A DNA stretch of 56,543 nt, the filler included, from Fonticula-like sp. SCN 57-25 (Eukaryota), in assembly GCA_001724245.1 (NCBI GenBank). It is 4 parts of 4 records of this genome, joined end to end, with 100 filler letters (N's around TTAATTAATTAA, not from the genome) between each part and the next. Parts side by side here need not be neighbours in the genome. Positions count along the whole stretch, not along the records: positions 42,608 to 56,543 come from MEDX01000166.1; 3 more parts are not named here. One strand, given 5' to 3'. Below, in pieces: positions 14,904-56,543 of the stretch. Numbering within the stretch: the first letter of the stretch is position 1; each line of letters opens with the position of its first letter. Made by a program: the position numbers and the translations under genes. A model generated the notes under the pieces. That model was given only the letters and a program-made list of their open reading frames with translations. It made no database searches and had not been told where the DNA came from.

Positions 14904-17900
14904 CTAGACGGTGAGCATGATGTTGAGCTCGCGGCTATGCACGCGGCTGAGCTCCATTTCCTCATGCTCGTCGTCGAGCGCCTTTGCGTCGAGGTGCGCC
15001 TCATCGGGAACCTCACTGTTGTACAGGCGGAAACGCCGGCGGATACCTCCCTTGGCCAGTTTGTACAGCTCGGACAGCGCCACAAAGAGGATGGAGAATC
15101 CGACCACCATGCCCCACTCCCAGCTGATGGGAGCCTGGCGGAAGAGCTCGGTGTTGATGTAAGGAATGTACACGACGGGGAAGAGGGCCAGAATACTGCA
15201 GACAACCACGTAAAAGAGGGAGCGGTTGTCGTTGAAATGCATCTTAAAGATCGACTTGTTAATGTCGCGGCAGTTGTAGGCGTGCAGAAGCAGGAGAATG
15301 CAGTGCGTGGTGAACGCCGCAGCGCGCGCGCGGTACACGGCGTCGCAGCCTGGCGGCGTCATCGAGTGGTTGCAGCCAGTGGCGTCGAACGAGCCGGTCG
15401 GGAGGGCGGCAATGACAATCACAAAGGTCGACAGGACAATGGCGCCCATGATGACGCCGTACGCAAAAGTATCAATAATCACTTCGTTGCTAAACACCAC
15501 GCGCTTGGTGGAGCGCGGAGGGCGCTCCATGATGCCGCGCATAGACTTTTCCAGGCCGAGGCAGATGGCCGGACCGGACGACGTAATCAGGTTCATCCAC
15601 AGAATCTGCAGTGCCGACATCGGGAACACAATATCGCCGGACTGCCCGACAAGGCCGAGGCCAACAACGAGGACAATCACCTGCGAAACGTTGCCGCTCA
15701 GCAAGTGCAGCGTAAACTTGCCAATGTTGGCAACAATGCGGCGGCCCTCGGAAACGGCGCGCACAATCGTAGCAAAGTTGTCGTCGGTCAGCACAACGTC
15801 GGCCGCCTGCTTGGTCACGTCCGTGCCGCCGTGGCCCATGGCGATACCGACGTCGGCGTGCTTAACGGCGGGCGCATCGTTCACGCCGTCGCCTGTCATC
15901 GCGGCGATGCGGTCGCGCCGGTGAAGCGCCTGGATGAGCTTCACCTTGGTCTCGGGCGCGCAGCGAGCAATGACGTGCGGCAGCTCGGGCATCGCGTCAA
16001 TCTCCTCCTCGGTCATCGCGTCAAACTCGCGCGCCTCGAGCACCACGCCGCCCTCTTGCAGGATACCAATGCGGCGAGCAATCGCCGCGGCCGTGCGCGG
16101 GTGATCGCCAGTAACCATGTGTACAACGATACCGGCGTGCATGCATTTTTCCACGGCAGGAGCGCTCTCCGGACGAGGCGGGTCCTCCAAGCCAACAAGG
16201 CCGCAAAAGATCCAGTCAGACTCCATCGCAGCGCGGTCATCGATCGTGATCGGCGTCATCACATCCTTGTCCTCGCGGTATGCAAATGCGAGCACGCGGA
16301 GCGCCTGGTCGGCGTAGTCGCGCGTCACCTTGAGCACGCTCTCGAGCACATCGGGCGTCATCTCGACCACGCGGCCGTCGGCGTCAACAATGCGCGAGCA
16401 CCGCTCGAGTACGACCTCAGCCGCGCCCTTGCCGCTCAGCAGGCGCAGCTCCTCGCCGTCGCGCTCAATTCGGGAGATGACAGTCATGCGCTTCAGCGTC
16501 GCCTCGAACGAAAACTCGGTCTCGTACTTGTGAGTGGTCGCTTGCAGCCTATTTTTATACGCGTCAGCTAAAAAGGGTGCGCAGCAATGAGGGCGCGTAC
16601 TCATCCTTGTTGAGGCCGCTATCGATGCCGGCGCTGAGCAGCGCGGTTTCGGTGGGATCGCCAGTGAGGAAAGGCTCGCCGTCCTTTTCAATCACCGAAG
16701 CAGTGTTGTTGAGCGTGCAGCCAAGGAGAAGGTTGGCCAAGCCAGCATGAGACGTCTCCCCAAACTTTGGCGTCCCCTTGGCGTCGCGAAGGTCCACCTC
16801 GCCAAGCGTGGTCCAGAAGACTGTGGCGGTCCTTCAACGGGTGAGCATTGGGGGTTGATCAGGGCGGCCAGAGAGGGATGAACGTACATTTGGCCCAGCG
16901 TAAGCGTGCCGGTCTTGTCGGAGCAAATGTCGGTGACGCAGCCGAGCGACTCGAGGGCGTTCATGCGGCGGACCACAGCACGTTCGCGCGCCAGCGTGCG
17001 AATGGCAACCGAAAAGGTAATGGTGAGGACGGCGGGAAGCGCCTCGGGAATCATGGCGACGGCGAGAGACAGGGCGTACAGCAGCACCTCGGTGGTGAGG
17101 TTGAAGCTGCTCACGGCAAAGACAATAAGAGCCAGGATGATGGCGCCGACCTATACATAACTATCTTAGCATGGCGCACTCACTGGGAAACACACTCTCG
17201 TACCAACAGCCACAGCATGAGAAAGTTCATCTGGCGCTCGAGCGCGGTGGTAGACTTGCCCTCGGATGACGCAATGGACGCGGCAATCTTGCCAATCTCG
17301 GTGTTCATGCCGGTGGCGACGACCACGCCGCGCCCGCGTCCAACCATAACCACAGTGTTCTTAAAGCCCATACAAAGCCGGTCGCCGAGCGGAACATCCG
17401 CGTCGGGAAGGATCTTGGTGTTCTTGCGTACAGGAAGGGACTCGCCGGTAAGCATGGCCTCATCAACGCCAAGGTTGACAGCCTCGAAAAGACGGATGTC
17501 GGCCGGGATTTGGTCCTATGACATAGAAAATCAGTTTTGAACTCAACCAAAAGCGGGTCAACGCACTCCCTCGCGAAGCACGACGATGTCGCCCAGGACG
17601 ACCTGCACGGCGGGGACGTCCATCTCCTCGCCGTTTCGAATAACGTGCGCAATCGGCGACGACATGCGCCGGAGCGCATCCAAGGTTTTCTCAGAGCTAT
17701 ACTCTTGCGCAACCGAAATGGAGGTGTTGGCGATAATGATTACGCCAACCACTACGGCCTCGACCACGTCGCCGGCGACGGCGCTCAGGACCACGGCAGC
17801 CGCCAGAACAAAGTTCATCGCATTAAAGATGTTGCGCAGCAGCATCTTCAAAAAGTGAGCTTGGCCGCTCCCCGTGAGCTCATTGGGCCCATAACGCCCG

Positions 17901-18043
17901 AGCCTTTCGGTAACCTCATGCGTCTGGAGACCAGTCTTGATAGAGACATTGATATTCTCGTCTCGAATAATATCTTCAACGGCGCGCGTGTGCGCCTGCA
18001 CAGTTTCCACATGAACAGAATCTACATTTCGACCACCAACCAT
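14904..18043 (-). CDS. ENA1: P-type ATPase, type IID (ENA-type Na+/K+ efflux pump), multi-exon
   Basis: YGPNEL, LTGESLPV, IPEALP, CSDKTGTLT, MVTGDHP and MTGDGVNDAP motifs. ENA-like TM5-6 (NIGKFTLHLLSGNV; VFPMSALQILW) and YRARAAAF. The start codon is uncertain. Confidence 0.82.
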
Positions 18044-19045
18044 CACGTAAGCGAGCTCGGCAGATTTGTGATTTCAAATGTGGAAAGGGGAAGACGCCGG
18101 GAGGGAGGCGGGCGAAGCGAAAGTAAAAAGCGACACGTCACAACCCGGTACACATAGTTTGTAGATCCCTTCCCATTGGCCGATGGCCCAAAAAGGAAAC
18201 AGTGTGATTGAGGCAGATGAATCGTTATCTTATGTGTGCGGGGCGGGGGCCGAGGGGTCGGAAGGGGGAGGGCGCTTTGAAATGTGAAGTCACAATGACA
18301 AAAAGGGGGCAAAAGGCACCAAAAGAGGTACATTGCAGCTTATTCTGACGCAGGGCTTGGCCATGAAACCACTTCCGTAGCGCGGGAGCCGCGGCGTGAT
18401 GCGCGGCTTGACGCCAGATTTATCTCGGGATCCCGAAAATTTCAGCGTAGAAAAGTGAAAACTATGTAAGGCAAAATGCAGGAAAAACTTGACTGGGCTT
18501 GAGCCGTGATGCTTTTGCTGTTCAGCTCGGCATCTGCGCGCATCTGCCGAGGGCTGCTATATCCGTGTTCTATATTATCATGTCTACATAGTCTTTATTG
18601 TGAGGGATGGCGCGAAGGAATTAGAAATTGATATTTGCATGAGGCCGAGTTTTGCTTTGATCTATTTATTCTTTGCCGTTCCTTTTGAAGCGAGTCGGAG
18701 CTCAAGAGCGACATGCGCGGCTCCTATTTACCTATTGCTGATACCATTCTAGTGTACCGCAAAAAAACCGCTCTACTAATACTGTCTTATCATCGCCATT
18801 TTATTTAAAGCTCATTATGCAATGGTGCAAACACGCTCACAGGTCGTCAGCTGACGCGCTTGCTGTCCACCTGCCGTCCACACTTCCGGTCCACCTCAGT
18901 CATCGATAATATTACCTATTAAGGAAATGATGACACACACCTTCCAAATTGAGGCTGCTTTTTTCCATAATCGTACGACCCCTTCACAGACCCCGCCGCC
19001 GCCGACCAACAAACACGCTTCGCGGAAAGATCTGCGCGAGTAAAG

Positions 19046-43274: not shown

Positions 43275-43800
43275 TCAAAACGATAACACACGCCATTTCG
43301 AGCAATGGCAGACGGCGTCGTCGAAGCGCCATTCAAGGTAGCAGACAATCTGCGCGCCGGCCAGAAACATGATCAATCATCATGAACGACTTTTAGGTGA
43401 TAACGTAGAAGAGTACTAAACGAACAGCGTGGGAGCAGCGGTCGGATCCCTCGTTTTCAGGGCGTTCCTCAGGAGAGGCCGGCGAAAAAGCCGCTGTCTC
43501 AGTGGCACCGTCATCCTCGCGCACTACGGTGACGTCAAACTTGTTCAGAGGAACAGCCACGGGCTCCCCGTTTGAATCCCCAATGAAGACGTCAAGCTCG
43601 TTGCCGGCAGCGGCCAGATGCGCCGTCAGCTTGAGCACCAGATCAGAGCCGGTCACCTGGGCACGAAGCAGCTTGCTGTCGTCGAGCGCACTATGGGAGT
43701 GGCCGTGTCCGGCATGGGAGTGGCCGTGCCCGCCATGCAGTGACAACAACAACGTGGGAACAGGTTTGTGAGACTTGCGTGTCCATTTTGATTGGTGCAT
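43275..43800 (-). CDS. Small His-rich putative metal-binding protein (start and 3' exon uncertain, possibly decayed)
   Basis: HGGHGHSHAGHGHSH is followed by a globular beta-rich segment GNELDVF...PVAVP...ERP...CSH. Possible intron 43350-43425. Confidence 0.5.
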
Positions 43801-43812
43801 CCAGTTCACCTT

Positions 43813-43840
43813 ACTGTGGTTGTCGTGCTGTGGTTGTCGT
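43813..43840 (+). promoter_or_regulatory. Tandem GCTGTGGTT-type element pair in the divergent His-protein/ABC promoter
   Basis: CTGTGGTTGTCGT occurs twice, 14 bp apart. Exact GCTGTGGTT at 43827-43835 and a one-mismatch copy at 43813-43821. Confidence 0.65.
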
Positions 43841-43884
43841 ACCATTTTGTTGCAGCATCTCCCAGGGTCCCCACGTCGCACGCC

Positions 43885-45982
43885 ATGGCCCACCGGCGCC
43901 TTCGCGACGAGGATGACGTCCTGCTTGAGAAGGGCTATGGTTCGCCCAACGACGACGACGACGGCGGCAGTCATGGCCAAGGCCACGGGCACAGTCATGG
44001 TGCTACGGCGGCGCTCGCAGTCTTTGGCCGCCTGCGCGACTCGAGTGGGCCGCTGCGGCGCTTGGCGGCGCTCGCGCGCGCTGAGTGGTCGTGGATGCTT
44101 TCGGGTGCCATCGCGCTCGTGCTCGCCACCAGCATCAACGTGTTTATGCCGTACTCACTAGGCTACATCCTCAACGACGCGGCGGCGGAAGGGTCGTTTA
44201 CTGCCGTTACCAAGGTCATCGTCATTTTCCTCGGAGTTTACATACTAGGATCCGCTTTAACAGCTATGCGTGTGTACTGCTTGACGATGGCAGGCGAGCG
44301 CGTCGTGAGGACGTTGCGCTTGCGTCTGTACGCGAAGCTTCTTCAGCAACCGGTGTCCTTCTTTGACGCGGCCCACTCGGGCGAGCTCGTCAGTCGCCTC
44401 GCGACCGATTGCGAGCTGATTCGGTTGGTGCGACACAGTTGGCATTGGTTTGCAACTCTGACTCACTTTCATGCAGACGCTAACAAACACGGTTGCTGTC
44501 ATGGTGCGTTTTGGCATCCAGGTCATCGGCGGCACCATGTTTCTCTTTTGGCTGAGCTGGAGCTTGACACTGGTCATGCTGTCCGTTGTGCCCCTGCTTG
44601 GCATCGCTGGTTTCCTCTACTCGCGGCGTGCCCGCAGCCTTGGCCGCGACCTCCAGGACGACCTCGCCACCAACGCGGCGCTTGCCGGCGAGGTGTTGGG
44701 CAACATGCGGCACGTCCGCGTCTTCGACGCCGAGGCGCGAGAGAGATCGAGGTCCGTGCATATTTTTGCTATTATTCTTTCTTACAAAAAATTTCTCACA
44801 GGTACTTGACACGGCTTGACTGGACTTATGGAGTCGCCCGCAAGCTCGGTATTTTGAACGCCTTCTTCATGGGAGGGACGGAACTTGGTACGTACATTGC
44901 CGTGCTCGGAGTCATTTTGTACGCAACGTACCTACTGACCGTGGGCCGCCTTAACATCGACTTCGTTAGTGCGTACATGTGCGCGTTTTTGCTCCTGTCT
45001 AACCGTGTGTTTTGTTTATCAGCGTCGTTCGTGCTGTATGCCGTTTACGTGTCCCATGCCCTTGGCGCCCTGTCGCATCAAGGCACGGAGCTCGCGCGCG
45101 CGGCCGGCGCCTCCGAGCGCATTTTTGAACTGCTCGACCGCATGTCTGGCACATCTGCGGAGCCGCTCAGCGAGCCGGCAGGCCCTGTGCTTCGTGGCGA
45201 TATCGAATTTCGAAATGTTACCTTTGAGTACCCTGCACGGCCGAACGAAAAGTCGGCCGGTTCTGTGCTGCGTCGGCTCTCATTCAAAGTGCACTCCGGA
45301 CAGACTGTGGGTGTTGTTGGCGCCTCGGGTGCTGGCAAGAGCAGCATTTTGCAGCTTATCCCCCGCCTCTACGACATCAACGATGGCTCTATCTTGATTG
45401 ATGGCAAGTCGCTCCACTCGTACGACCCGCGGTGGCTGCGGCGTCAAATGGGCTTTGTCATGCAAGAACCCATCGTGTTCCACGACACCATCGCTGCTAG
45501 TACGCAAACAACCCCCTTTTTTTCACATGCTCATTCACACGCACCTGCCAGACATTCGCTACGGTCGCCCTGATGCGAGCGACGAGGAGGTGATGGCAGC
45601 CGCCAAGGAGGCACTCATCCACGACACCATCATGGAATTTCCAAACGGCTACAACACCGTGGTCGGTGATCGCGGCGCCGGACTCAGCGGCGGACAGAAA
45701 CAGCGTGTCGCCATTGCTCGCGTTTTCCTCATGGACGCTCGTATCGTTCTCATGGATGAACCCACGTCAGCACTCGACACCGCCAACGAGGCGCTGGTGG
45801 CGCAGGCGGTGCAACGCCTCTACCAAGGCCGCACCTGCCTCGTCGTGACGCACACTAGTGATCTGCTCCGTGCTGCGGACAGCGTTCTAGTGATGGCAGG
45901 TGGCAGCTGCGAAGCACACGGCACAATTCCAGAACTGCGTGCGAGTTCGGTATCCTTCCAGCGTCTTTTCCCATCTGTTTAG
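43885..45982 (+). CDS. ABCB (TAP/MDL-like) half-transporter with His-rich N-terminus, apparently intact
   Basis: SHGQGHGHSHG, TMD with FFDAAHSGELVSRL, Walker A GASGAGKS, LSGGQKQR, Walker B LMDEPTSALD and H-loop. The frame is restored by short GT-AG introns (e.g. 44428-44476, ~45500-45552). Confidence 0.9.
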
Positions 45983-46511
45983 CAATCATTCATTAATATT
46001 TAGTTGCGCAAAGCTATGCTACCATCAATACGAATGCTTGTTGCACTCATAGTCCGTGCAAATTTGCTGAAAAGTCAGTAAAGTATCCACGATTTAGCCG
46101 ATACTTGTTCAAAATAATTGAAAAATCAACATTAACATTGACGTTTCTTTCATGCAAAATAATACATACGTATTTTTCAAAAATTTGAATTCATCTACAA
46201 TTACAGTCACTCTCAAAGTAACGCCCCCCTCCCTCTCATTTCCACGTTGACCGTCCGGCTTAGAGCGTCTGCGGTGGTAACTGCATGCATCATTGTGCCA
46301 AAGCGGCAGCGCGGGTCCGCCGTCTCGCAAGCGTGTGGACGTCCTCAACATCCTTGTAAATGTAGACGATCACGTTTTCAGATTTGCCCCTGCCTGATCC
46401 CGATGTCGATGTGGCCGGTGCGAAGGCGTTTGCGGCTGACTGCAACCAGCTTGAGGCACATCATCCGTGCGGCAAAGTTGCTGTCAAGGGCCGCTGCATC
46501 GCCATCAGAAG

Positions 46512-47528
46512 ATGCGCTTCTCAAAGCGGGCCGAGATCTTGGCACTGAACGCACGGACACTCGACGCGCGACATTGGCCGGCACTCCGACAGGTTGGCAG
46601 GGACCGTCGCAGTGTGCATCGCTTCCTTCAGACGTTTGCAGGAAGAGCTCTGCTACAAGACTGCAGGCGCCGGGGACGTCGCCCCATACTGGCTTGCCGG
46701 AACGAGCCTAGAGTGAGGCGCGCGATCATGAAAGGCGAGTGCGACACGGCCGTGCAAGTCGCGCGGCAGGCTCAACCTCCGGCTGCCGCGCGTGTCTGAC
46801 TCGACCGTGCGACACGCCATAAGGAGGCAAGGATTGCAGGCCCGGGTCAAACGCGCCGTCCTGCTCCTCACGTCCCGTCACAAGGTACTTAGGCTGGTAT
46901 GGGCACGGAGGCAACGGTACTGGTCGCCGAGTGACTGGGTACGGGTCATATTTTCGCACAAGGCCAAGATTATACTAGTGAGTTCCGCTGGGCGTACCTG
47001 GTGCTGGCGAGGCCCCGGCTGCAATCCCTTCGAGCAGGTCAAGCCTAGGCTGAAATTTGGCGGTGGCTCGCTAATGGTCTTGGGGTGCATGTCAGCGCGA
47101 GGGGTGGGCAACCTGTGTCGTATATTCCCTACTGTGACGGCCGACGTGTACATGGAAATCCTGGAACGGCACATGCTTCCCTCACGGGCCTGGTTGCTGC
47201 CCCACGCGAGGGCACCCTTCGTGTTTCAGCAGGACAACGACGCCAAGCACACATGCACTGCGACCGCCGAGTGGCTCGGCGCGAACCACGTGGACGTGCT
47301 GGCTTGGCCGCCGCTAAGTCCCGACCTAAACCCTCTGGAGTTATTTGGGCCGTGTTCAAGAGAACAGTGCGGGAGGGCGCAGCGATCACCGGCATCGAGG
47401 ACCTCCGGGAACGCATGAAGGCCGAGCGGTGGGCGATCGAAGCCGGGCTGTGCGCACGGTTGGTCGCCTCAAGGCCTGACCGCGTGCGCGCCGTCATCGC
47501 GGCAAGGGGCGGCTACACCAAGTACTAT
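46512..47528 (+). mobile_element. Tc1-family (DD34E) transposase relic
   Basis: HTH region GRRP...STVRHAIRRQGL, then KFGGGSLMV.GC, FQQDNDAKH, WPPLSPDLNPLE and VIAARGGYTKY. The first catalytic Asp is replaced (IFSHKAK) and there are at least two frameshifts. No intact TIR pair found. Confidence 0.9.
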
Positions 47529-48067
47529 TGTGCAGACAGTGATATGTTACGCTCACTGAACGCACTCTGTGGTGGCTCCAATGGCAAAAATCGCGTTACT
47601 AGTAAAACGCAACAGAGCGTTTAAGTCGTGACCCAGCCGAGCGATGCAACTCTATGCACGTCCCTTTCATGTGGATTGCAGCAAGGATGTGCCCTTATAG
47701 GAATGCTTAAGGCATGCGCATCATGGGCGAGACATATTTTGATTTTATCGACAATGCGGGGACAATACTTATGTGATGATGAGAGTCCCTCTATGACGGG
47801 ATTTGAGAATCTATCGCAAGGATGTTCAGTAGGGTAGCGGCGCGGTTGCAACAATCCGCGACAGCTCGGCGCACCTACGTATCGGTTAGTATTATTACTG
47901 GATTTAATAATATTGTTTGGCTTTCTTAGTATTGCTATTGGATTTGCTGATTATAAAAGCAGTATCAAGCGCCTACATACAACAAATCAAAAAACAACAA
48001 TAGAAGGTGATGAATATGGAAAGAAAGAAGGAAACACGTACGAGTGCTTCCTCAAGCCACAGAATAA

Positions 48068-48682
48068 TCAGTCGTTGAGTTGGTTAGCCAATTGATCTAG
48101 AACCAAGGACGCAGATGTGAGGAGGCTAAGTTGACAAGGCATGGAACCCAATTTCGAATACTGTTGGCAATCGCATCCGTCGACTGGCGAGTCAAGAGGA
48201 ACTGAAATCACTTGGTGAGGGGACTCGACTGGCGAGTCAAGAGGAACTGGAATCACTTGGTGAGGGGACTCGACCGCTGGGGCTTTATGTTGCTGCTGGA
48301 GAAGCTGTTCAAGGGATGCAATGTAACTTTCCTGTTCCGACACTTTTGAGCGTAATTTGTCGAGTTCAAGTAGAATTGGTGACGAGTGTTCCGGCCGCGT
48401 GCCCATCGAATTGTGCCGCTCATGCGAGCGTTTGTGGCGATGCAGGTCGTAAGACTGCACAAAACGTTTCCCACAGTCAGTGCATGCATGAGTAAAAACT
48501 TGCCGATGAAACCGGTCGTGTCGATCCAGCGCGTCCTTCCGACTGAACACCATCGTGCATTCCAAAAATTCGCAAGCGTACGGTTTTCTGTCAGCGTGGG
48601 TACGACGGTGGCGGGCAAAACCAGCCTTGGAGAATACCAACTTGCATGTGCTGCATTGACGACCCTTCCCTTCAAGGTCCAT
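48068..48682 (-). CDS. Three-finger C2H2 transcription factor with coiled coil and C-terminal Cys motif, intact and intronless
   Basis: Fingers CSTC..HRRTH, CEFLEC..HDRFH and CTDC..HKRSH with a KPYAC linker. Heptad region ELDKLRSKVSEQESYIASLEQLL and tail GCDCQ...PC. Confidence 0.88.
   Translation of the reverse strand: MDLEGKGRQCSTCKLVFSKAGFARHRRTHADRKPYACEFLECTMVFSRKDALDRHDRFHRQVFTHACTDCGKRFVQSYDLHRHKRSHERHNSMGTRPEHSSPILLELDKLRSKVSEQESYIASLEQLLQQQHKAPAVESPHQVIPVPLDSPVESPHQVISVPLDSPVDGCDCQQYSKLGSMPCQLSLLTSASLVLDQLANQLND
48180..48269. repeat. In-frame 45-nt tandem duplication within the ZnF gene (VESPHQVIxVPLDSP x2)
   Basis: Units 48180-48224 and 48225-48269 differ at one base. Confidence 0.95.
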
Positions 48683-48829
48683 GTTGACGACGCGTGCAAA
48701 ATCGTTCAAGGCTAGAATTGGCAATGCTTGGCAGGGCAGTACCGGCAATTAGTAATCAGTGCGTCAAGCACTTTCTCCGATCTGTACGCCACCTTGCGAG
48801 ATTGGAAATATGGATGGTCGTTAAGGCGC

Positions 48830-48962
48830 TCAACCACAGGTCAGCGTGCTGTGGTTGACGCTGAGCGTCCACGTCACTGATGACGTCATTTATGATGACT
48901 TCACCACAGCACAACCACAGCACAACCACAGCACGAACCACAGCACAGCTGACAACTACAGC
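48830..48962. promoter_or_regulatory. AACCACAGC/GCTGTGGTT cluster plus CRE palindrome in the divergent ZnF/P1B-ATPase promoter
   Basis: Exact copies at 48848 (reverse orientation), 48913, 48924 and 48936. One-mismatch copies at 48832, 48902 and 48954. ATGACGTCAT palindrome at 48880-48889. Confidence 0.75.
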
Positions 48963-49006
48963 ACGAAACTATTCCTCCGCATTGTCGCGGTGGTACCACA
49001 AGGCGC

Positions 49007-51500
49007 ATGGAGGGCTCTTAAACTGCAGTGACAGTATCAGAAGGGCCGCCGGAGCCCCTGGTAGCCAGCGGCTCTGTGAAAGTGCGACTAGCTGTTTGAA
49101 GTCAGTGTCGCTAATTTTGCTATCATTAGTGCAACGGAGATGGATGCTGCAAGACAGCTCAGAAGACCAGCATAGCAAGCACTGGGACTGTTAAACCGGT
49201 TACTGAGCCAGACACAGCCTTGGAAGATAGCGCGGCACCAGTGGATCCTGTCCCAACCAAGGTACGGCACTATTTGTATCGGCACCACCCATGCCAACAA
49301 TCTTTGTTATTTTATATCAATTCTCGTTGTGCAGAAGTGCAAAGGGAGTGCATGTTGCTCCAAGACTGTTGCTAAGAGAAGCATGGAGGGTGCACTTGCT
49401 GTTGGATCGGAGATGTTTGACACGAAGGATGCCATCGCGGAGCCAAGGGTGCTGCAAGGCAGCTGAGCGGAGCAGCATGGCTATCGATTTGGATGTTAAA
49501 CCGTTGAGTGAGCCAGAAGCATTTGCCCGACGGAACCAGTGGATCCTATCCCGACCAAGGTGCGGCACCGTTTGCATCGGCGCGACCCTTATTTAACAAT
49601 GATTTATTATATTTGTGTGCAGAAGTGTAAAGGGGGTGCATGCTGCTCCAAGACTCCCGCCAAAAGCAGTGTGGAGGGCGCTCCGGCTGTTGGACCGGAG
49701 ATGACCGACAAGAAGAATGCCATCATGGAGTCAAAGGTATGCGTGCTCGCACACTCCCATTGCATTCTCATGGCAAATAGAGTTGCAGTGACTAGCCATG
49801 CTGTACGAAAAATATTGTCTATCCTGCGGCGAAAACAATACTCCCGGCGAGCAGACAGGAGGACACTCCCTCTACCGACAACGCTACGAAGGCTGTCGCA
49901 GTTGTTGTTAGCCTGCTCTGCAGACGTCCTGGTCGGCTCAAACAACCGCCGTCCAACCTGCGGAGCGCGCCACGACAGAGGCTCGCGTTTCTTTTCATTC
50001 TTTTTTTGTTATAATCAAACAATAAATGACACGGGTTTTGTTTTAGGCGTGTATGAAGCCTTGCTGTGATAGAAATGCGGCTACTCTTCCGAGTCAGGTG
50101 ACCCCATTGAAGCAGCGTATCAAATGCTGCGCACAGTGCTGGTCACGTCAAGTGGCGTGCTGCAAGGTAGCGTGCTGCTCTGCTCTCTGCTGCGTGACTC
50201 AGTTGGCGTTTCCTGAGCCAGCCACATCCAGATCGTTCATCCAGCATGTGCAAGAGTTGTTCACGCGACAGTCCCGCGATGCCTCGTACACAGATGTGGA
50301 GATGAACGATGTGGGGGTGAAGGGCGAGCCTTGTGCAGTCTGGTTTTGTCGCCGAGGGAATTGACTGCGCCGACTGCGCCAACACCGTGCGTGATGCGCT
50401 CTTGCGCGAGCCTGGTGTCCGAGACGCCGTCGTCTCTGCTCTGACCGGCAAGGTGAGCGTGATGTACGATGGTAGTTTGTATTCTGACGACAAGGTGCTC
50501 GAGACTCTGAATCGCATTGGACTCAAAGGGCCAGCTTACGGGCATGGCTGTTATCATGCTCAAGCTCCGCGGGCAGCCAACGCTGGACGTGGTGCCAAGG
50601 CAATAGTGCTTTGCGCGACGCAAATGGCAATCCCGCGGACCAGCGCATCACGGTGGATTCCAAGGTTACCCCGCGCCTGCTTCGCGTCGAGTTTGACGCT
50701 CGCATGTTTGGTCCTCGTATGATCCTGGAGATGCTGCAGCGTGAGGGCATTGACTGCGAATTGAGCGACGACAACGAGGCTGCAGAGCATCCCGCGCAAA
50801 ACGAAGTGCATCGCTGGCAGCGGTCGACACTCCTCTCGCTGTTGTTTGCAATTCCCGTGTTTTTGGTTGCGTTCGTGCTGCCAAGCTGCGGGGAGGCCGT
50901 GAACGAGACGGTCAACAGGGCAGTGGGCCACGGCTTGTCCTTGTCCACACTGCTTATGCGTGTGGGTTTTTGCCACGCCCATCCAGTTTTACTGTGCGCG
51001 ACAACTTCACGGCTCGGCCTATCGTTCGTTGCGCTACTTGAAGCGGCCGAATATGGACGTGCTCGTGGTGCTCAGCTCGCTTGTCGGCTACGTCTACTCT
51101 GTCATTGTTGTGTTTGTGGCACTCGGTGGCGGCTTACAAGAAACTGGCGAGACCTTTTTTACGGCCTCCGCATTGTTGCTTGCATTAAATGCCGTTCTTC
51201 CTGACACACGAACGGGATGCCGCCTTCTCCTGTCGGGCGCGAAGCTTACACAACGAATCAACGTTTAGCGCCTTGAGATCGGACGTTACCATATCGGTGG
51301 AATATGTAGAGAGGGGACACCTCGGTTGTTATGCAGTAGGTGCTGGACGGCGGTCGGGGTTGTCAACGACAACTTGCGCAGTGTGACTATGGCAGACATC
51401 AGAATTCAATTAGATTTTTCTTGTTATCTGTAAACGGGGCGGTTGCGGGTAAAGAGAAAGACAATGTATTGAGAGACAATCAGCGTGGCCAACGGGCCCC
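49007..51500 (+). pseudogene. Heavy-metal P1B-type ATPase with Cys-rich N-terminus, disrupted and truncated in the actuator domain
   Basis: Repeated C-x4-CC exons, a CC-rich block (~50053-50200), HMA GIDCADC (~50357) and TM motifs FATPIQFY, PNMDVLVVL and FFTASALL. Stops at 49019 (TAA) and 49793 (TAG), plus several frameshifts. No CPC or DKTGT downstream. Confidence 0.85.
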
Positions 51501-54500
51501 ACGCACCAATCACAAGAGGGATACAACAATCCGGATCGAACACTATAGTCACCATACAACAACATACAATCAACATCCTTACAGTACACTACTCCTCTCA
51601 ATTAATTTTTCTTTCTCTTGTTGTGTTCACGACGTCTACCAGAATACACCAAAATATACAAACAAACACGATTCACAAATACGAGGTCACTACTCACAAG
51701 AATAACATCACTAATACAATAATAATATCTACTTCACAAATATAAGGTCACAAAATATAATATCACTACCTCTTCCCCCTTCCTTAATCGTGTGTGCTCT
51801 GCTTCCTCATATGCACGGATCAAGTCTGCGCTGACTTCCCCATGTGTCCGAATCATTGATCGTCCGCGACTCCGTATCCTTGCCACCGCACCAGATTCTG
51901 TGGCCACCTTCCAACGTGCCGACAATCGAGAATGCGCTCGACGGTATACTGCTGGTCGTCCGCGTCAATGGGGCCAGGGTCCAACTGATTCGATACGCCG
52001 CGTCGTTCGCGGTCACGCGTGCTTCAGACAGCGGCGCTGCGCGGTCGGTCAGAGAAGGTTCCATTTCAGGGTCGAAATCATCGCCGTCATCCAGTCGGGG
52101 AACATCGCGCGGCCTCACTGTACTTTCGTGAGTGTCGGCTTGCACTACGCGCAGACGCGATGCGTCCTAGATCAAAGTGCAGCGTTGTCGCAACCGACTG
52201 GTTCGACTCCCTGGAATGGTCATAACGCGCGACTAGAGTGTCGGCTTCTCCTGGGACTTTAGAGCATTCAGGCGCCGCGCATGAATGCGACATGGAGGTG
52301 CGCGGCCGACGCCACGCGCGTCGAAAGCACACGTATATAGAAATGCCGATGAGTACGCCGCTTATTCTGGCGCGCGTTCGATTGACTACCGCACCCACCG
52401 TGCTTGATGAGGCGAGGCCAAGCGTGGCAGCGTGTTCGCCGTCGGGTTTCCACACATCACTGAAAGGAGGGCATGAGGATGCTTACGTTTCGAGTCGGAA
52501 TCGAATTTGGAGTCGATATGCTGTAGTCGCGCGAAAGAAGATAGCACATCGTAGGTTCCGCGCGAAGCGTACCACATTCCAATGCAAAGCTGGCCAGGTC
52601 AAGTAAAGCCTACACAGCCACCCTTTATGTCGACACGCATTAGGGTAAGGGGGGATGTTGCAGCCGCAGCAATGTCAGCGGCACGCAGTCAGAGTGACGG
52701 TGACGCAGAGCGCTCGCTAGCATCTCCAGTAACAGGAATAATTGGTCATACGACTCGCACAAGTCGGACCGAGCGGCTTTTCTGGCGTGACAAGCACACT
52801 GGTCTGCTTTGGGAAGAATGAAAGGCACACACCGTACTGAAGCTGGTGGTACATGTAGACGGTCCCAATATGGAGTGAAATGAGCTTCAAGTACAAATTT
52901 TCCACAGGGACGATGAGCAGGGCGCACGTCGAGGGAAAGAAACGCGAACATGGCAGTCTTGCCCCCGCCATTTTCCTCAACTACAACGACGAACAGCGGA
53001 GTGCAAAAAGGGATTCCGCTTGAACACCACGAAACTCAGTTGAAGGCAGCTTGCAGAACAGCGGTGTTGCTCCAGCCGCCGCGACTCTGACGAACATCGA
53101 GCAGTTTGCTCGGGTGGCAACACCACCAATATTTCCCACAGTGTCTGTCAGGTGACAAGAAAAACTCCCAGTGGGAGACAGCGTGAAAAACGAAAATGAA
53201 TTGCCATATATGGTCGTGGTGGCCACGATTAATGAAGCGAAGGATTGGTTAACGTAGTCGGAGGATTGAAAAAATAAATACAAATTGGACGACATTGATC
53301 TAATGAAGAACCAGCAGACGCAGGAGAGAGAGAGAGGGAGGAAAACAGGTACAAAATGAAAGTGAGGAAACATTGAAGGAAGCTGAAGAGAAGTATGAGC
53401 AAAAAAAGAACGATCAAAGCAAAGGAAGGACACATTATAGTAGCACGATCTCTTCATGGCTTAGTTAAGAGCGTCGAGTCTAGATTCTTCGTCCAAAGGA
53501 GCAATGCATTGAGCAATTTCCCACGAAACGCGCGGTTGCCCCAAATGATATATATGAGCCTCAAGGCGGTCTCGTGCCTCAACGAGGTACCCGTGAAGAT
53601 TCGTCGAATGATCGCCAGTTATTTTAATTCCGCAAAGCAGCTCAAAAAGTGAAACTCTGCCTTGAGCATATGCCTCCTCCCAATTTTCACCAGGGCACAA
53701 AAACTGCCCCACGTTTCGCAGCACGTCGATAACAGACGGAATTGGCGGTCGTCGAGGTACGTGTTGCAGAAACCGTCCATTAACCTGGTAGAGGTCGACG
53801 GCGGCGGGAAAAAACTCGTCGTAAGGAAGCTCACTTTTGACAGCTGATAATTGCGAGAGTAGTGCAGCTGCCCTACTTTCATCATTCAGTGGACGACCGT
53901 CGCGGCCCTCATCTATGGAGTTCGCCATGGAGCCTGATTTGCGTCGTTGTAAAAAGTCGAGCGATGCGGCAGAGAGATTACGTCATCAATGGTATAGTTT
54001 TAAACCAGACTCGCGCCAATAAGGTGTGGTGTTTCCCAGCCGTGACCAACTCAACAAAATGGCGCTCGAGCGACGCGGGTTGGAGCGTCAGGAAGCGGCA
54101 GCGCTATTCAATGGCGCCGACCACAGAGAGGTGAATTCCTCGATATGGGATTGCTTTAAAGGACGACTAACATGTCGCTGTCTGTAGGTCTCGAGGCGGC
54201 TGCGCACAGCTCACATTATGCGGTTGTGACCATCCGCCAAGTGGCCTTGCGGGGGAACCGCCGCGCATCTAGCGGCGACAATAGCAGCAGGTCATAGGCT
54301 AGAGCTCAAGGGGCGACTAGTCTAGCCCGAGATGTCTGTCCGCTTTGCCGCCGTGGATGCGGACTGTTGCCCCCCATGTGGTCGCCTCAGTTCTTTTTGC
54401 AAAATTGACTGGGGTGCCGTTCACTGTCAACCACTGAGACGTCAACCATTGTCACAAGCCTGTCACAAGGATTGCTCAGCAAGATCAACGCAAGCTCTAG

Positions 54501-54965
54501 ATCATTCTAGGACCTTTTACCCCTCTACCAATATACGCATTGTCAGCCACGCTGCTTAATAAGCAAACTTCCCCTTAGTATAATTACGTGTAGCTTTTCG
54601 GGTTCTCAGTGTTCTTCTCTCTGCAAAGGTAATAAACCTCTGACACCTTCGATATCTGAACTCCTCCCTCATCACACGGTAAAAATGATTGTACGTCATC
54701 CAAAGATCCAGCCTGCACAGATCACAGATGCGGGATCGTGTGAGCGTAAATGGATTAAAGTGGCGTACCGCTTTATTGGTCGGCTTCAAAGTTCAATCAT
54801 CAAATAGCTAAAATATATAAATATGATTTCGATGCGACCTTTTCCGGAATAATTCGGCCGTTTGAAAGTTACGTGAAAACCAAATATATTGCGGGACCTG
54901 GTTCCAGAATATATTTATGTAAGCTAGTTTTAATTCTATCCTACATGCTTGATAGTCATTGGTAA

Positions 54966-56193
54966 TTAAATCGTCGTGGCCACGATACGACGCCTGGCAC
55001 TCGTGAAAAGTGCCTGCTCCTCAGTGCAGCATTCTGCCTCGATGCACGGGACGTCCTCAACGGTACCACGGCTTCCCTCCTGGTTAGAGCGACAACGCAT
55101 GCTGCATGATACCTCATCAAGCTGATGAAACTGCGCCGCGTCTTCGACAAACTCGTGTTGCAGCGTCGCAGAATGAATACCATGCGAGTGGAACGTGTTG
55201 TGAAGTTCCTGGGAGATGCTGGGGAGACGCTCCTTGACGCATACGATGTGCGAGGACGCCACTAGCTTGTTGTCCGTCAGCTGCCACACATGCAACTCGT
55301 GAACCTGTAGCACTCCGGGCACATCGAGGAGTGCGTTCTTGAGGTCATCCAGGTCAAGGTTACTGGGAAGAGTTCCCAGCAGAATGTTAGCGGTTGCGCG
55401 CACAAGTGGCACTGAGTGGAAGAGTAGAATGCCCACGACAACCAGCGTCAAGATCGGGTCGATGTAAACCGTGCCTGGCGCGTCAACCTTCCAAATAATC
55501 GCTGCACTAACGATCACTACCACGGAGCCCAAGGCGTCACCTGCCACATGTAAAAATGCGCCCCGCATGTTGTGGTCACGTGTGGCTCGTTTTTCAGTGG
55601 CGGATGGTTGCTCGGACTCAAGGTTGGCGTGGCTGTGTCCATGACCGTTCTCGAGCTCGAAGCGGCTATGCCCATGAGAGTCCTCGAGCCCGAGTTCGCC
55701 GTGCCAATGATCATTCTCGTTATGAGTACATGAAGAAGCATCGGCTTTGCGCACAACATGGCTGTGGCCATGCCCTCCACTGTGGCTATGGCCATGACCG
55801 CCCCCGCTGCCACTCAACAGCCCCAAGCCAATGATGTTAAAGCCCAGACCAACGGCACCAACGATAAGCACGAGTTCAGGATCTTCCACTGCCTCCGGCG
55901 TGAAGAGTCGTTCGACGGCGCTCACAAATAGAGAGAAGCACAGAGCTATCAGGAGCACGCCGTTGGCAAGCGCGCCAAGAGTTTCCAAACGACGCCAGCC
56001 GTAGGTATTCCTAGCGGAGCTTTTCTTGGCAACGCGAAGTGCTGTTATGGCTGTGATCAAGGAAATCATGTCCGAAAGCAAAGGCATCCGCGACGAGGGC
56101 GTTTGACTTGCTCATAGTTCCGACAACGATTTCGACGAAGAAAAACGCGGTCGTCAGGGTTAGGGTGACCATCAGGCGCCAAGTCCGGGCCAT
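54966..56193 (-). pseudogene. ZnT1/Zrc1-like CDF zinc transporter, full length but frameshifted in TM2 (pseudogene or assembly error)
   Basis: FFFVEIVVG..SNALVADAF/LSDMISL, NTYGWRRLE.LGAL.NG, His-rich loop, NMRGAFLHVAGDALGS, VHELHVWQL, HGIHSATLQ and a Cys-rich tail. The frame breaks at 56079/56080. Confidence 0.9.
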
Positions 56194-56225
56194 GCTTGCG
56201 AAAACGGCCGTTTGCCTGCCTGTTC

Positions 56226-56403
56226 AACCACAGCCGGAGGAAATATATACAGCATGTAACACCCAACCACAGCAAGGAACCACAGCGCAACCACCGCATC
56301 GTGACAACTGAAGAAATATGACACAACCACAGCACGCCAATCAACCGCAGCACGAACCACAGCGTGACAACCACAGCGTGACAACCATAGCGGCAACCAC
56401 AGC
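56226..56403. promoter_or_regulatory. Dense AACCACAGC/GCTGTGGTT cluster directly upstream of the CDF transporter
   Basis: Exact copies at 56226, 56265, 56278, 56325, 56355, 56369 and 56395. One-mismatch copies at 56289, 56343 and 56383. All have the same orientation and begin 33 bp upstream of the ATG. Confidence 0.8.
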
Positions 56404-56543
56404 GCGAAATTTGTACTGTAGATCAGTTACACCCATTGGGAAACGTTAAGGGTAGAGTCCAGGGGGGTACTCCTCCATAATCAATAAAGTGGCTAATCAC
56501 TGTCACCCCACCGGTTGTTCTGATTCGCTGTCGGCGGTTCGGT

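What the first reader, a model, noticed from the sequence alone, without database searches (positions are those of the whole stretch)
48068..48682. The island's own C2H2 factor is predicted by the recognition code to bind exactly GCT-GTG-GTT: a self-contained autoregulated regulon
Seen: helix positions -1..+6 are F1 SKAGFAR, F2 RKDALDR and F3 QSYDLHR. Known code (fingers bind antiparallel, 5'-F3-F2-F1-3'): F3 R6/D3/Q-1 gives GC(T/A), like QSSDLTR/QSGDLRR-type helices. F2 R6/A3/R-1 gives GTG, like RSDALTR, with D2 favouring a following G/T. F1 R6/small3/S-1 gives GTT, like TSGSL.R; this is the least certain because F1 is one residue short. The prediction GC(T/A)GTGGTT matches the motif arrayed upstream of the ABC/His pair, the ATPase, the ZnT and this gene itself. 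Inference: a cluster-encoded regulator with cognate operators and feedback, distinct from six-finger MTF-1, Zap1 and Ace1/Mac1. I know of no described equivalent.
Basis: partly seen in the sequence, partly recalled or inferred. Interest (0 to 1): 0.95.

Follow-up and report, generated by a model that had tools for sequence, protein, structure and literature searches.

The report
Zinc-finger gene beside its predicted sites
A small three-finger DNA-binding protein gene sits among metal-export genes whose promoters carry arrays of the 9-base word that two of its fingers are predicted to read, but that word is also the classic RUNX site and nothing has been measured.

Summary
ORF 48068-48682 (-) encodes a 204-aa protein with three C2H2 fingers whose helices are SKAGFAR, RKDALDR and QSYDLHR. 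GCTGTGGTT occurs 12 times in the window against 0.6 expected. All 12 copies lie upstream of an ABC/His-rich gene pair, of the finger gene itself and of a ZnT1/Zrc1-type CDF gene.

F2 and F3 match published engineered modules at every contact position (RSDALTR = GTG; QSSDLTR/QSGDLTR = GCT/GCA). With Arg+6 of F1 this predicts GC(T/A)GTGG, the first seven bases of the motif; I estimate the chance of that match at about 0.001-0.004. F1 has a rare X11 spacing, so TT and the conserved tenth G stay unexplained.

The 9-mer is also identical to the RUNX-AML consensus GCTGTGGTTW and lies inside the Runx2 OSE2 site. A Runt-domain factor is therefore a real rival, and it cannot be excluded because no genome is held.

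I found no orthologue, no RNA data and no diverged relative. Two of the presumed targets look damaged in this assembly. This is a plausible, bench-testable, cluster-encoded metal regulator, not a demonstrated regulon. Interest is moderate.

The parts
48068..48682 (-). ORF of 204 aa: three C2H2 fingers (residues 10-87), a long helix, a 15-residue duplicated segment and a Cys-containing tail
48596..48655 (-). Finger 1, CX2CX11HX3H, helix SKAGFAR. It is one residue short before the helix.
48506..48574 (-). Finger 2, CX4CX12HX3H, helix RKDALDR. It has the same contact residues as the module RSDALTR (GTG).
48422..48484 (-). Finger 3, CX2CX12HX3H, helix QSYDLHR. It has the same -1/1/3/4/6 residues as QSSDLTR (GCT) and QSGDLTR (GCA).
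48290..48379 (-). Residues 102-131: a confident helix with an a/d heptad pattern (I103 L107 L110 V114 Q117 I121 L124 L128), a possible coiled coil
   Evidence: pLDDT about 87 in this block; the heptad pattern is read from the sequence. The dimer job gave no verdict.
48180..48274 (-). 45-nt tandem duplication that encodes VESPHQVI(P/S)VPLDSP twice
48832..48962 (.). Seven motif copies (4 exact, 3 with one mismatch) lying 150-280 bp upstream of the finger gene's ATG. Six are in the gene's sense orientation. 48832(-)/48848(+) form an inverted pair, and 48902-48944 is an 11-12 bp tandem array.
43813..43835 (+). Two motif copies 14 bp apart in the roughly 85-bp gap between the ABC gene (ATG 43885) and the divergent His-rich ORF (Met at 43799)
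56226..56403 (-). Ten motif copies (7 exact, 3 with one mismatch), all in sense orientation, 33-210 bp upstream of the CDF gene's ATG (56193)
43885..45982 (+). ABC half-transporter (ABC_membrane plus ABC_tran) in two ORF pieces, probably joined across one short intron. Its N-terminus is His-rich.
43393..43799 (-). His-rich ORF (HGGHGHSHAGHGHSH...) with no Pfam family
54966..56193 (-). CDF transporter of the ZnT1/Zrc1 type with a His-rich loop. The first 40 residues are in another frame. The break falls at the conserved FHMLSD motif.
50321..51265 (+). HMA domain plus the first membrane segments of a P1B-type ATPase, spread over three frames. No catalytic domains were found downstream.

Best explanation
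The arrays of GCTGTGGTT(G) are cis-regulatory sites shared by a small cluster of metal export or sequestration genes. These are a ZnT1/Zrc1-type CDF, an ABC half-transporter, its divergent His-rich partner and the finger gene itself. The 204-aa three-finger protein encoded in the middle of the cluster is their most likely reader. In this model F3 (QSYDLHR) reads GCT, F2 (RKDALDR) reads GTG and Arg+6 of F1 reads the next G, on the G-rich strand in the usual antiparallel order. The protein thereby controls its own gene as well.

What is shown: the ORF, the fingers, the motif enrichment and placement, and the agreement of F2 and F3 with published modules. What is inferred: actual binding, the TT(G) part of the site, the sign of regulation, the metal sensed and possible dimerisation through the helix at residues 102-131. 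On the sign, I lean 60:40 towards activation under Zn/Cd excess rather than metal-relieved repression.
For: The motif occurs 12 times against 0.61 expected, with 0 of 100 shuffles reaching 12. It is the top non-simple enriched word in the window. Nineteen sites with at most 1 mismatch lie in 960 bp of three upstream regions, and no exact site lies elsewhere. Eighteen of the 19 point towards the downstream transporter or finger gene.

This ORF is the only multi-finger C2H2 in the six-frame scan. No other DNA-binding family appeared among the 40 ORFs scanned with Pfam.

The module tables give RSDALTR = GTG and QSSDLTR = GCT, QSGDLTR = GCA. The window's F2 and F3 share all base-contacting positions with these modules. 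Aart's RRDALNV finger appears among the solved relatives; its ATG target is recalled, not checked. Both linkers have canonical length.

My arithmetic for a chance match: the predicted set GC[AT]GTGG is 2 of the 16384 seven-mers. The 10-bp consensus offers 8 seven-mers, counting registers and strands. That gives about 0.001, or about 0.004 if the middle base of F2 is left free.
Against: Nothing has been measured. No RNA holder was listed, no orthologue was found and no diverged relative was available, so no covariation test was possible.

F1 has a rare X11 spacing, and its helix (S, A, G at -1, 2, 3) predicts nothing firm for T8 and T9. G10 is conserved in 15 of 19 sites but is not predicted.

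The simple code prefers A, not T, opposite Gln-1; the match at position 3 rests on the QSSDLTR module, which has Ser where this finger has Tyr at +2.

The 9-mer is identical to the RUNX-AML consensus and lies within OSE2.

Site flanks are partly shared between arrays, so the copies are not independent.

The CDF gene is frame-broken at a zinc-ligand motif and the P1B ATPase is a fragment, so the cluster may be decaying, or the assembly may be wrong at these points.
Confidence: 0.55

Rival explanations
1. A Runt-domain (RUNX-like) factor encoded elsewhere in the genome binds the arrays. The finger gene is then just one more target, or unrelated, and the recognition-code match is a coincidence.
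For: GCTGTGGTT equals HOMER's RUNX-AML consensus GCTGTGGTTW at 9 of 9 positions (PMC7946360 table passage). The 10-mer GCTGTGGTTG lies in the Runx2 OSE2 and OG2 oligos (PMC3010073 passage). The in-array variant GCTGCGGTT fits the TG(T/C)GGT rule, which I recall. RUNX genes exist in several unicellular holozoans, and a Runx-like motif is enriched in open chromatin of Capsaspora (passages). The best named relatives of the CDF are all opisthokonts, including Capsaspora at 42%.
Against: No Runt-domain gene is seen in the window, although not every ORF was scanned. The taxon is unknown and RUNX is restricted to holozoans, according to the passages read. Position 10 is G in 15 of 19 sites, where the RUNX consensus has W. 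G1 (17 of 19) and C2 (19 of 19) are as conserved as the core. I know of no link between RUNX and metal transporters (recalled). This rival also needs the roughly 0.001-0.004 code match of the neighbouring finger gene to be chance.
Confidence: 0.15
2. Another, unidentified factor of any family reads the motif. The finger protein is co-regulated cargo of the cluster with a different DNA or RNA target.
For: Natural C2H2 proteins often depart from the code (general knowledge). F1 is atypical, and positions 8-10 of the motif are unexplained. Only 56.5 kb of the genome is visible.
Against: This has the same cost as the RUNX rival: the F2/F3 module match must be chance. No candidate was seen in the window.
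Confidence: 0.2
3. The arrays are non-regulatory short tandem repeats or relics of a mobile element, and their position next to metal genes is accidental.
For: Parts of the arrays are 11-14 bp tandem repeats. Triple AACCACAGC repeats are common as regular tandem repeats in unrelated metagenome contigs: 117 loci were returned and nearly all are strictly periodic. A Tc1/DDE_3 transposase remnant lies at 46732-47415.
Against: Isolated copies and an inverted pair also occur, and spacing within the arrays is irregular. All three places lie 14-280 bp upstream of start codons of functionally related genes. No terminal inverted repeats or longer shared flanks were found beyond the motif units.
Confidence: 0.07

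Closest known systems
Zif268/Sp1/KLF-type three-finger C2H2 proteins and engineered modules (RSDALTR, QSSDLTR, QSGDLTR)
   Same: Three tandem fingers with five-residue linkers. F2 and F3 carry the same base-contacting residues as modules listed for GTG and GCT/GCA. The predicted 9-10 bp site is G-rich.
   Different: There is no sequence relationship beyond the finger fold. F1 has X11 spacing. The F2-F3 linker RQVFT is not TGEKP-like. The tail (residues 89-204) has no relatives.
MTF-1 (animals), which activates ZnT1 and metallothionein genes through MRE arrays under zinc or cadmium excess (recalled)
   Same: The logic is the same: a C2H2 factor, multiple short sites close to the start of metal-efflux genes, and a ZnT1-type CDF as target.
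   Different: MTF-1 has six fingers and reads TGCRCNC (recalled), whereas this protein has three fingers and a different word. No homology was found, and MTF-1 is not encoded next to its targets.
Zap1 (S. cerevisiae) and Loz1 (S. pombe), zinc-responsive C2H2 factors
   Same: These are C2H2 factors that control zinc transporters. Zap1 acts on its own promoter and on ZRC1 (recalled). Loz1 uses only two fingers plus an accessory region (abstract of PMC11761706).
   Different: Zap1 and Loz1 respond to zinc deficiency or repletion of uptake genes, read other motifs (recalled), are unlinked to their targets and show no detectable homology to this protein.
Yeast ARR/ACR cluster (ARR1/Yap8, ARR2, ARR3)
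   Same: This is a eukaryotic metal(loid)-resistance cluster that encodes its own dedicated factor, which acts on the neighbouring genes (abstracts of PMC9266342 and PMC3865217).
   Different: Yap8 is a bZIP factor with a single site between two genes. Here a C2H2 protein is paired with arrays of 2-10 sites, and the genes serve Zn/Cd-type rather than arsenic export.
RUNX/Runt-domain sites (OSE2; RUNX-AML consensus GCTGTGGTTW)
   Same: The 9-mer is identical, and the 10-mer is identical to OSE2.
   Different: This describes the DNA word only. No Runt-domain protein is known for this organism. Position 10 is G here against W in the consensus.

Membership tests
C2H2 zinc finger (Pfam PF00096) | CX2-4CX12HX3-5H with conserved hydrophobic residues, scoring above the Pfam cut-off | tested here: met
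   PF00096 scores 41 bits against a cut-off of 25.2, E 1.9e-10. F2 and F3 are canonical. F1 is X11.
Canonical tandem-finger DNA readers (Zif268-like) | Adjacent fingers joined by five-residue TGEKP-type linkers, so that triplet subsites are contiguous | tested here: inconclusive
   The linker lengths fit (ADRKP, RQVFT), but only the first resembles TGEKP. The AF2 single-sequence model of the fingers is unreliable (pLDDT 29-69).
Canonical tandem-finger DNA readers (Zif268-like) | Measured sequence-specific DNA binding | not testable with these tools
   No protein-DNA predictor or assay was on hand. Only the module look-up was possible.
MTF-1 | Six fingers, MRE TGCRCNC, orthology to animal MTF-1 | tested here: not met
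   The protein has three fingers. The motif is GCTGTGGTT. No orthologue appeared.
Zap1 / Loz1 | Sequence homology outside the fingers, and the ZRE or Loz1 response element | tested here: not met
   The near and longer searches returned only the query itself and an unrelated reptile poly-finger protein. The tail has no look-alikes. The ZRE and Loz1 motifs are recalled, not checked.
RUNX target site | DNA word matching TGTGGT(T/C) or GCTGTGGTTW | tested here: met
RUNX target site | A Runt-domain protein encoded by the organism | not testable with these tools
   No genome is held. None was seen among the 40 window ORFs scanned.
CDF, ZnT1/Zrc1 subgroup (the target gene) | Cation_efflux plus ZT_dimer domains, a His-rich loop and an intact HxxxD site in TM2 | tested here: inconclusive
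   The domains and the loop are present, and named relatives are ZnT1, SLC30A1 and ZRC1/COT1. The frame breaks where homologues have FHMLSD.

The most novel reading that the evidence does not exclude
An uncultured, possibly opisthokont protist carries a compact, physically linked metal-efflux module that resembles a bacterial resistance island. It comprises transporters, a His-rich protein, and an orphan three-finger regulator with arrays of its own operator on every member including itself. A transposase relic lies beside it, so the whole unit could move or be lost as one piece. The regulator has converged on the very 9-mer that RUNX proteins read.
Probability: 0.15. Interest if true: 0.75.

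Novelty: new variant of a known kind. Interest (0 to 1): 0.45.

Why it matters
If the finger protein does bind these arrays, this would be a rare eukaryotic case in which a metal-homeostasis regulator, its operators and its target transporters can all be read from one 13-kb stretch. That would allow a clean test of the C2H2 recognition code on a natural orphan protein. It would also give a ready-made metal-responsive promoter and factor pair from an uncultured wastewater protist. The finding is also a warning for motif-based annotation: a perfect RUNX consensus may belong to an unrelated zinc-finger protein.

Tried and rejected

Orthologue searches. The search for homologous proteins with near lengths returned only the query (1 of 44 candidates). 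With longer lengths it returned one unrelated reptile poly-finger protein among 556 candidates. The representative search gave 42065 hits, but all 149 listed besides the query are long poly-finger proteins that hide any weaker orthologue. The search for related loci in genome contigs and in viral contigs found nothing.

Atlas. The whole protein gave only generic C2H2 clusters. The tail gave no usable hit.

Metagenome scan with three motif copies. Nearly all are strictly periodic tandem repeats, and none encodes a relative of the finger, CDF, ABC or ATPase proteins by tblastn (the His-rich query in that run was mis-framed and counts for nothing).

Sequencing runs. No RNA holder was listed. The laid contigs of X2, X3 and X4 match the window almost letter for letter where they overlap it, so they offered no covariation.

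Complex prediction on two copies of residues 86-145 gave no verdict (score 0.31 against a mark of 0.32). AF2 without an alignment gave mean pLDDT 46.8, so the fingers are not interpretable, and I made no fold search on that model.

A literature search for the 9-mer gave 1098 papers, of which 25 were listed. They were primers and RUNX oligos, and no metal element appeared among those listed. One Pfam batch failed on a mis-framed reference and was not repeated.

Full report
**What is there**

The minus-strand ORF 48068-48682 translates under the standard code to a 204-aa protein. It has three fingers:
- F1: C10-x2-C13-x11-H25-x3-H29
- F2: C37-x4-C42-x12-H55-x3-H59
- F3: C67-x2-C70-x12-H83-x3-H87

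A six-frame regular-expression scan confirms these coordinates and finds no other multi-finger gene in the window. Pfam zf-C2H2 scores 41 bits (E 1.9e-10), with F3 as the best stretch, and zf-H2C2_2 covers the F2/F3 junction.

HMMER alignments to solved finger proteins put the missing residue of F1 between the conserved Phe and the helix, so Ser = -1 and Arg = +6. That spacing is rare. In the 149 natural poly-finger proteins returned by the representative search, a simple pattern finds 16 fingers with X11 against 3658 with X12.

Both linkers have the canonical five-residue length (ADRKP, RQVFT).

After the fingers comes a helix at residues 102-131, the only confident part of a single-sequence AlphaFold2 model (block pLDDT about 87, whole-protein mean 46.8). 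It has a regular a/d heptad pattern. Next is a duplicated 15-residue segment encoded by a 45-nt tandem repeat, then a tail with C170, C172 and C183. The tail has no look-alikes.

**The motif**

GCTGTGGTT occurs 12 times against 0.61 expected, and 0 of 100 shuffles reach 12. Against a third-order Markov model the figures are 12 against 0.55. Only (GCC)n and AT-rich simple repeats rank beside it.

Allowing one mismatch gives 35 hits. Nineteen of them lie in 960 bp at three places:
- Two lie in the roughly 85-bp gap between the ABC gene (ATG 43885) and a divergent His-rich ORF.
- Seven lie 150-280 bp upstream of the finger gene.
- Ten lie 33-210 bp upstream of the CDF gene's ATG at 56193.

The other 16 are spread over 55.6 kb, close to the roughly 12 that my arithmetic predicts from word count. 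None of those is exact.

Eighteen of the 19 sites point towards the downstream transporter or finger gene. Positions 1-9 are nearly invariant, and position 10 is G in 15 of 19 sites.

Parts of the arrays are 11-14 bp tandem repeats, and some flanks are shared between arrays. The copies are therefore not independent. Isolated copies and one inverted pair (48832/48848) also exist, and no terminal repeats or longer shared sequence suggest a mobile element.

**The neighbours**

- The CDF has Cation_efflux and ZT_dimer domains and a His-rich loop. Its named relatives are ZnT1/SLC30A1-like proteins of invertebrates, a Capsaspora protein (42%), Fonticula and yeast ZRC1/COT1, all at 42% identity or less among those with wide coverage.
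- The ABC gene is a half-transporter in two ORF pieces, probably split by a short intron.
- A heavy-metal-associated domain with the first membrane segments of a P1B ATPase lies at 50321-51265. It is spread over three frames and has no catalytic domains behind it.
- A Tc1/DDE_3 transposase relic lies at 46732-47415.
- The CDF is frame-broken. Its first 40 residues align to homologues in another frame, and the junction falls where homologues have FHMLSD.

The claim that the motif sits upstream of 'the ATPase' is therefore weak. The nearest array is 1.36 kb from the HMA domain. The one-mismatch hits near the other P-type ATPase lie inside that gene.

**The recognition-code claim**

I checked the analogies against published module tables instead of relying on memory:
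- RSDALTR is listed for GTG, TSGSLVR for GTT and QSGDLTR for GCA (PMC3607563, Table 2 passage).
- QSSDLTR is listed for GCT and QSGDLTR for GCA (PMC4685226, Table 1 passage).

F2 (RKDALDR) shares -1, 2, 3, 4 and 6 with RSDALTR. F3 (QSYDLHR) shares -1, 1, 3, 4 and 6 with the GCT and GCA modules. Adding Arg+6 of F1 gives GC(T/A)GTGG, which is positions 1-7 of the motif on its G-rich strand and in the expected antiparallel order.

By my arithmetic, a 10-bp consensus offers 8 seven-mers over both strands, and the prediction covers 2 of 16384. A chance match is therefore about 0.001, or 0.004 if the middle base of F2 is left open.

The code does not explain T8, T9 and G10. F1 offers only Ser, Ala and Gly at -1, 2 and 3, and its geometry is uncertain. 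So 'exactly GCT-GTG-GTT' overstates what can be said.

**The rival**

The same word is the textbook RUNX site. HOMER's RUNX-AML consensus is GCTGTGGTTW (PMC7946360 table passage), and the Runx2 OSE2 and OG2 oligos contain CCAACCACAGCA (PMC3010073 passage).

RUNX genes occur in several unicellular holozoans, and a Runx-like motif is enriched in open chromatin of Capsaspora (passages). The CDF's named relatives are all opisthokonts. The organism could therefore carry a Runt-domain factor.

I cannot test this. No genome is held, and the window shows no such gene among the 40 ORFs scanned.

Against this rival:
- G rather than W stands at position 10.
- G1 and C2 are as conserved as the core.
- I know of no RUNX-metal link (recalled).
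- The finger gene's code match would have to be chance.

**What could not be done**

No orthologue of the finger protein was found. The metagenome scan with three motif copies returned only unrelated periodic repeats. The other runs that hold the stretch match it almost letter for letter where they overlap. There is therefore no co-variation evidence, and no RNA evidence either.

**Verdict**

The best reading is a cluster-encoded three-finger regulator that reads arrays on a small set of Zn/Cd-type export genes and on its own gene. I put its probability at 0.55. It is supported by placement and by a specific two-finger code match, but no binding has been measured.

It works like MTF-1 or Zap1 and is arranged like the yeast ARR cluster, but it is a member of none of these families. 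I rate it a new variant of a known kind and moderately interesting, chiefly because it can be tested directly at the bench.

Noticed in passing
window 56059-56196 (-): The CDF gene's first 40 residues (MARTWRLMV...ALVADAF) are in a different frame from the rest. The break falls where homologues have the zinc-ligand motif FHMLSD. This is either an assembly error or a real disabling lesion.
   Followed up: partly
window 50321-51265 (+): An HMA domain and the first membrane segments of a P1B-type heavy-metal ATPase are spread over three frames. An AT-rich repeat-rich stretch (51340-51770) follows, and no catalytic domains are present. This is a gene fragment or a heavily interrupted gene.
   Followed up: partly
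window 46732-47621 (+): A Tc1/mariner-like transposase relic (HTH_Tnp_Tc3_2, DDE_3) in two frames lies between the ABC gene and the finger gene. Short contigs of another run match part of it with several differences, as a repeat would.
   Followed up: no
window 49142-49738: A roughly 300-bp tandem duplication (75-84% identity) lies between the finger gene's array and the HMA domain. Its ORF pieces hold a Cys-rich stretch (QKCKG.ACCSKT).
   Followed up: no
window 14904-18073 (-): A P2-type cation ATPase (Cation_ATPase_C, Hydrolase) is read in four ORF pieces separated by short gaps. The organism therefore has a few short introns. The one-mismatch motif hits at 16971, 17208 and 17348 are inside this gene.
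   Followed up: partly
loci L001-L117: Three close copies of AACCACAGC are common in unrelated metagenome contigs as strictly periodic repeats, mostly with periods that are multiples of 3. A word search for such arrays is therefore not specific.
   Followed up: yes
window 43300-56543: Near-identical DNA, with no or very few differences, is present at low depth in contigs of runs from three studies (bioreactor, wastewater and one labelled with an organism). The organism therefore recurs across samples.
   Followed up: partly
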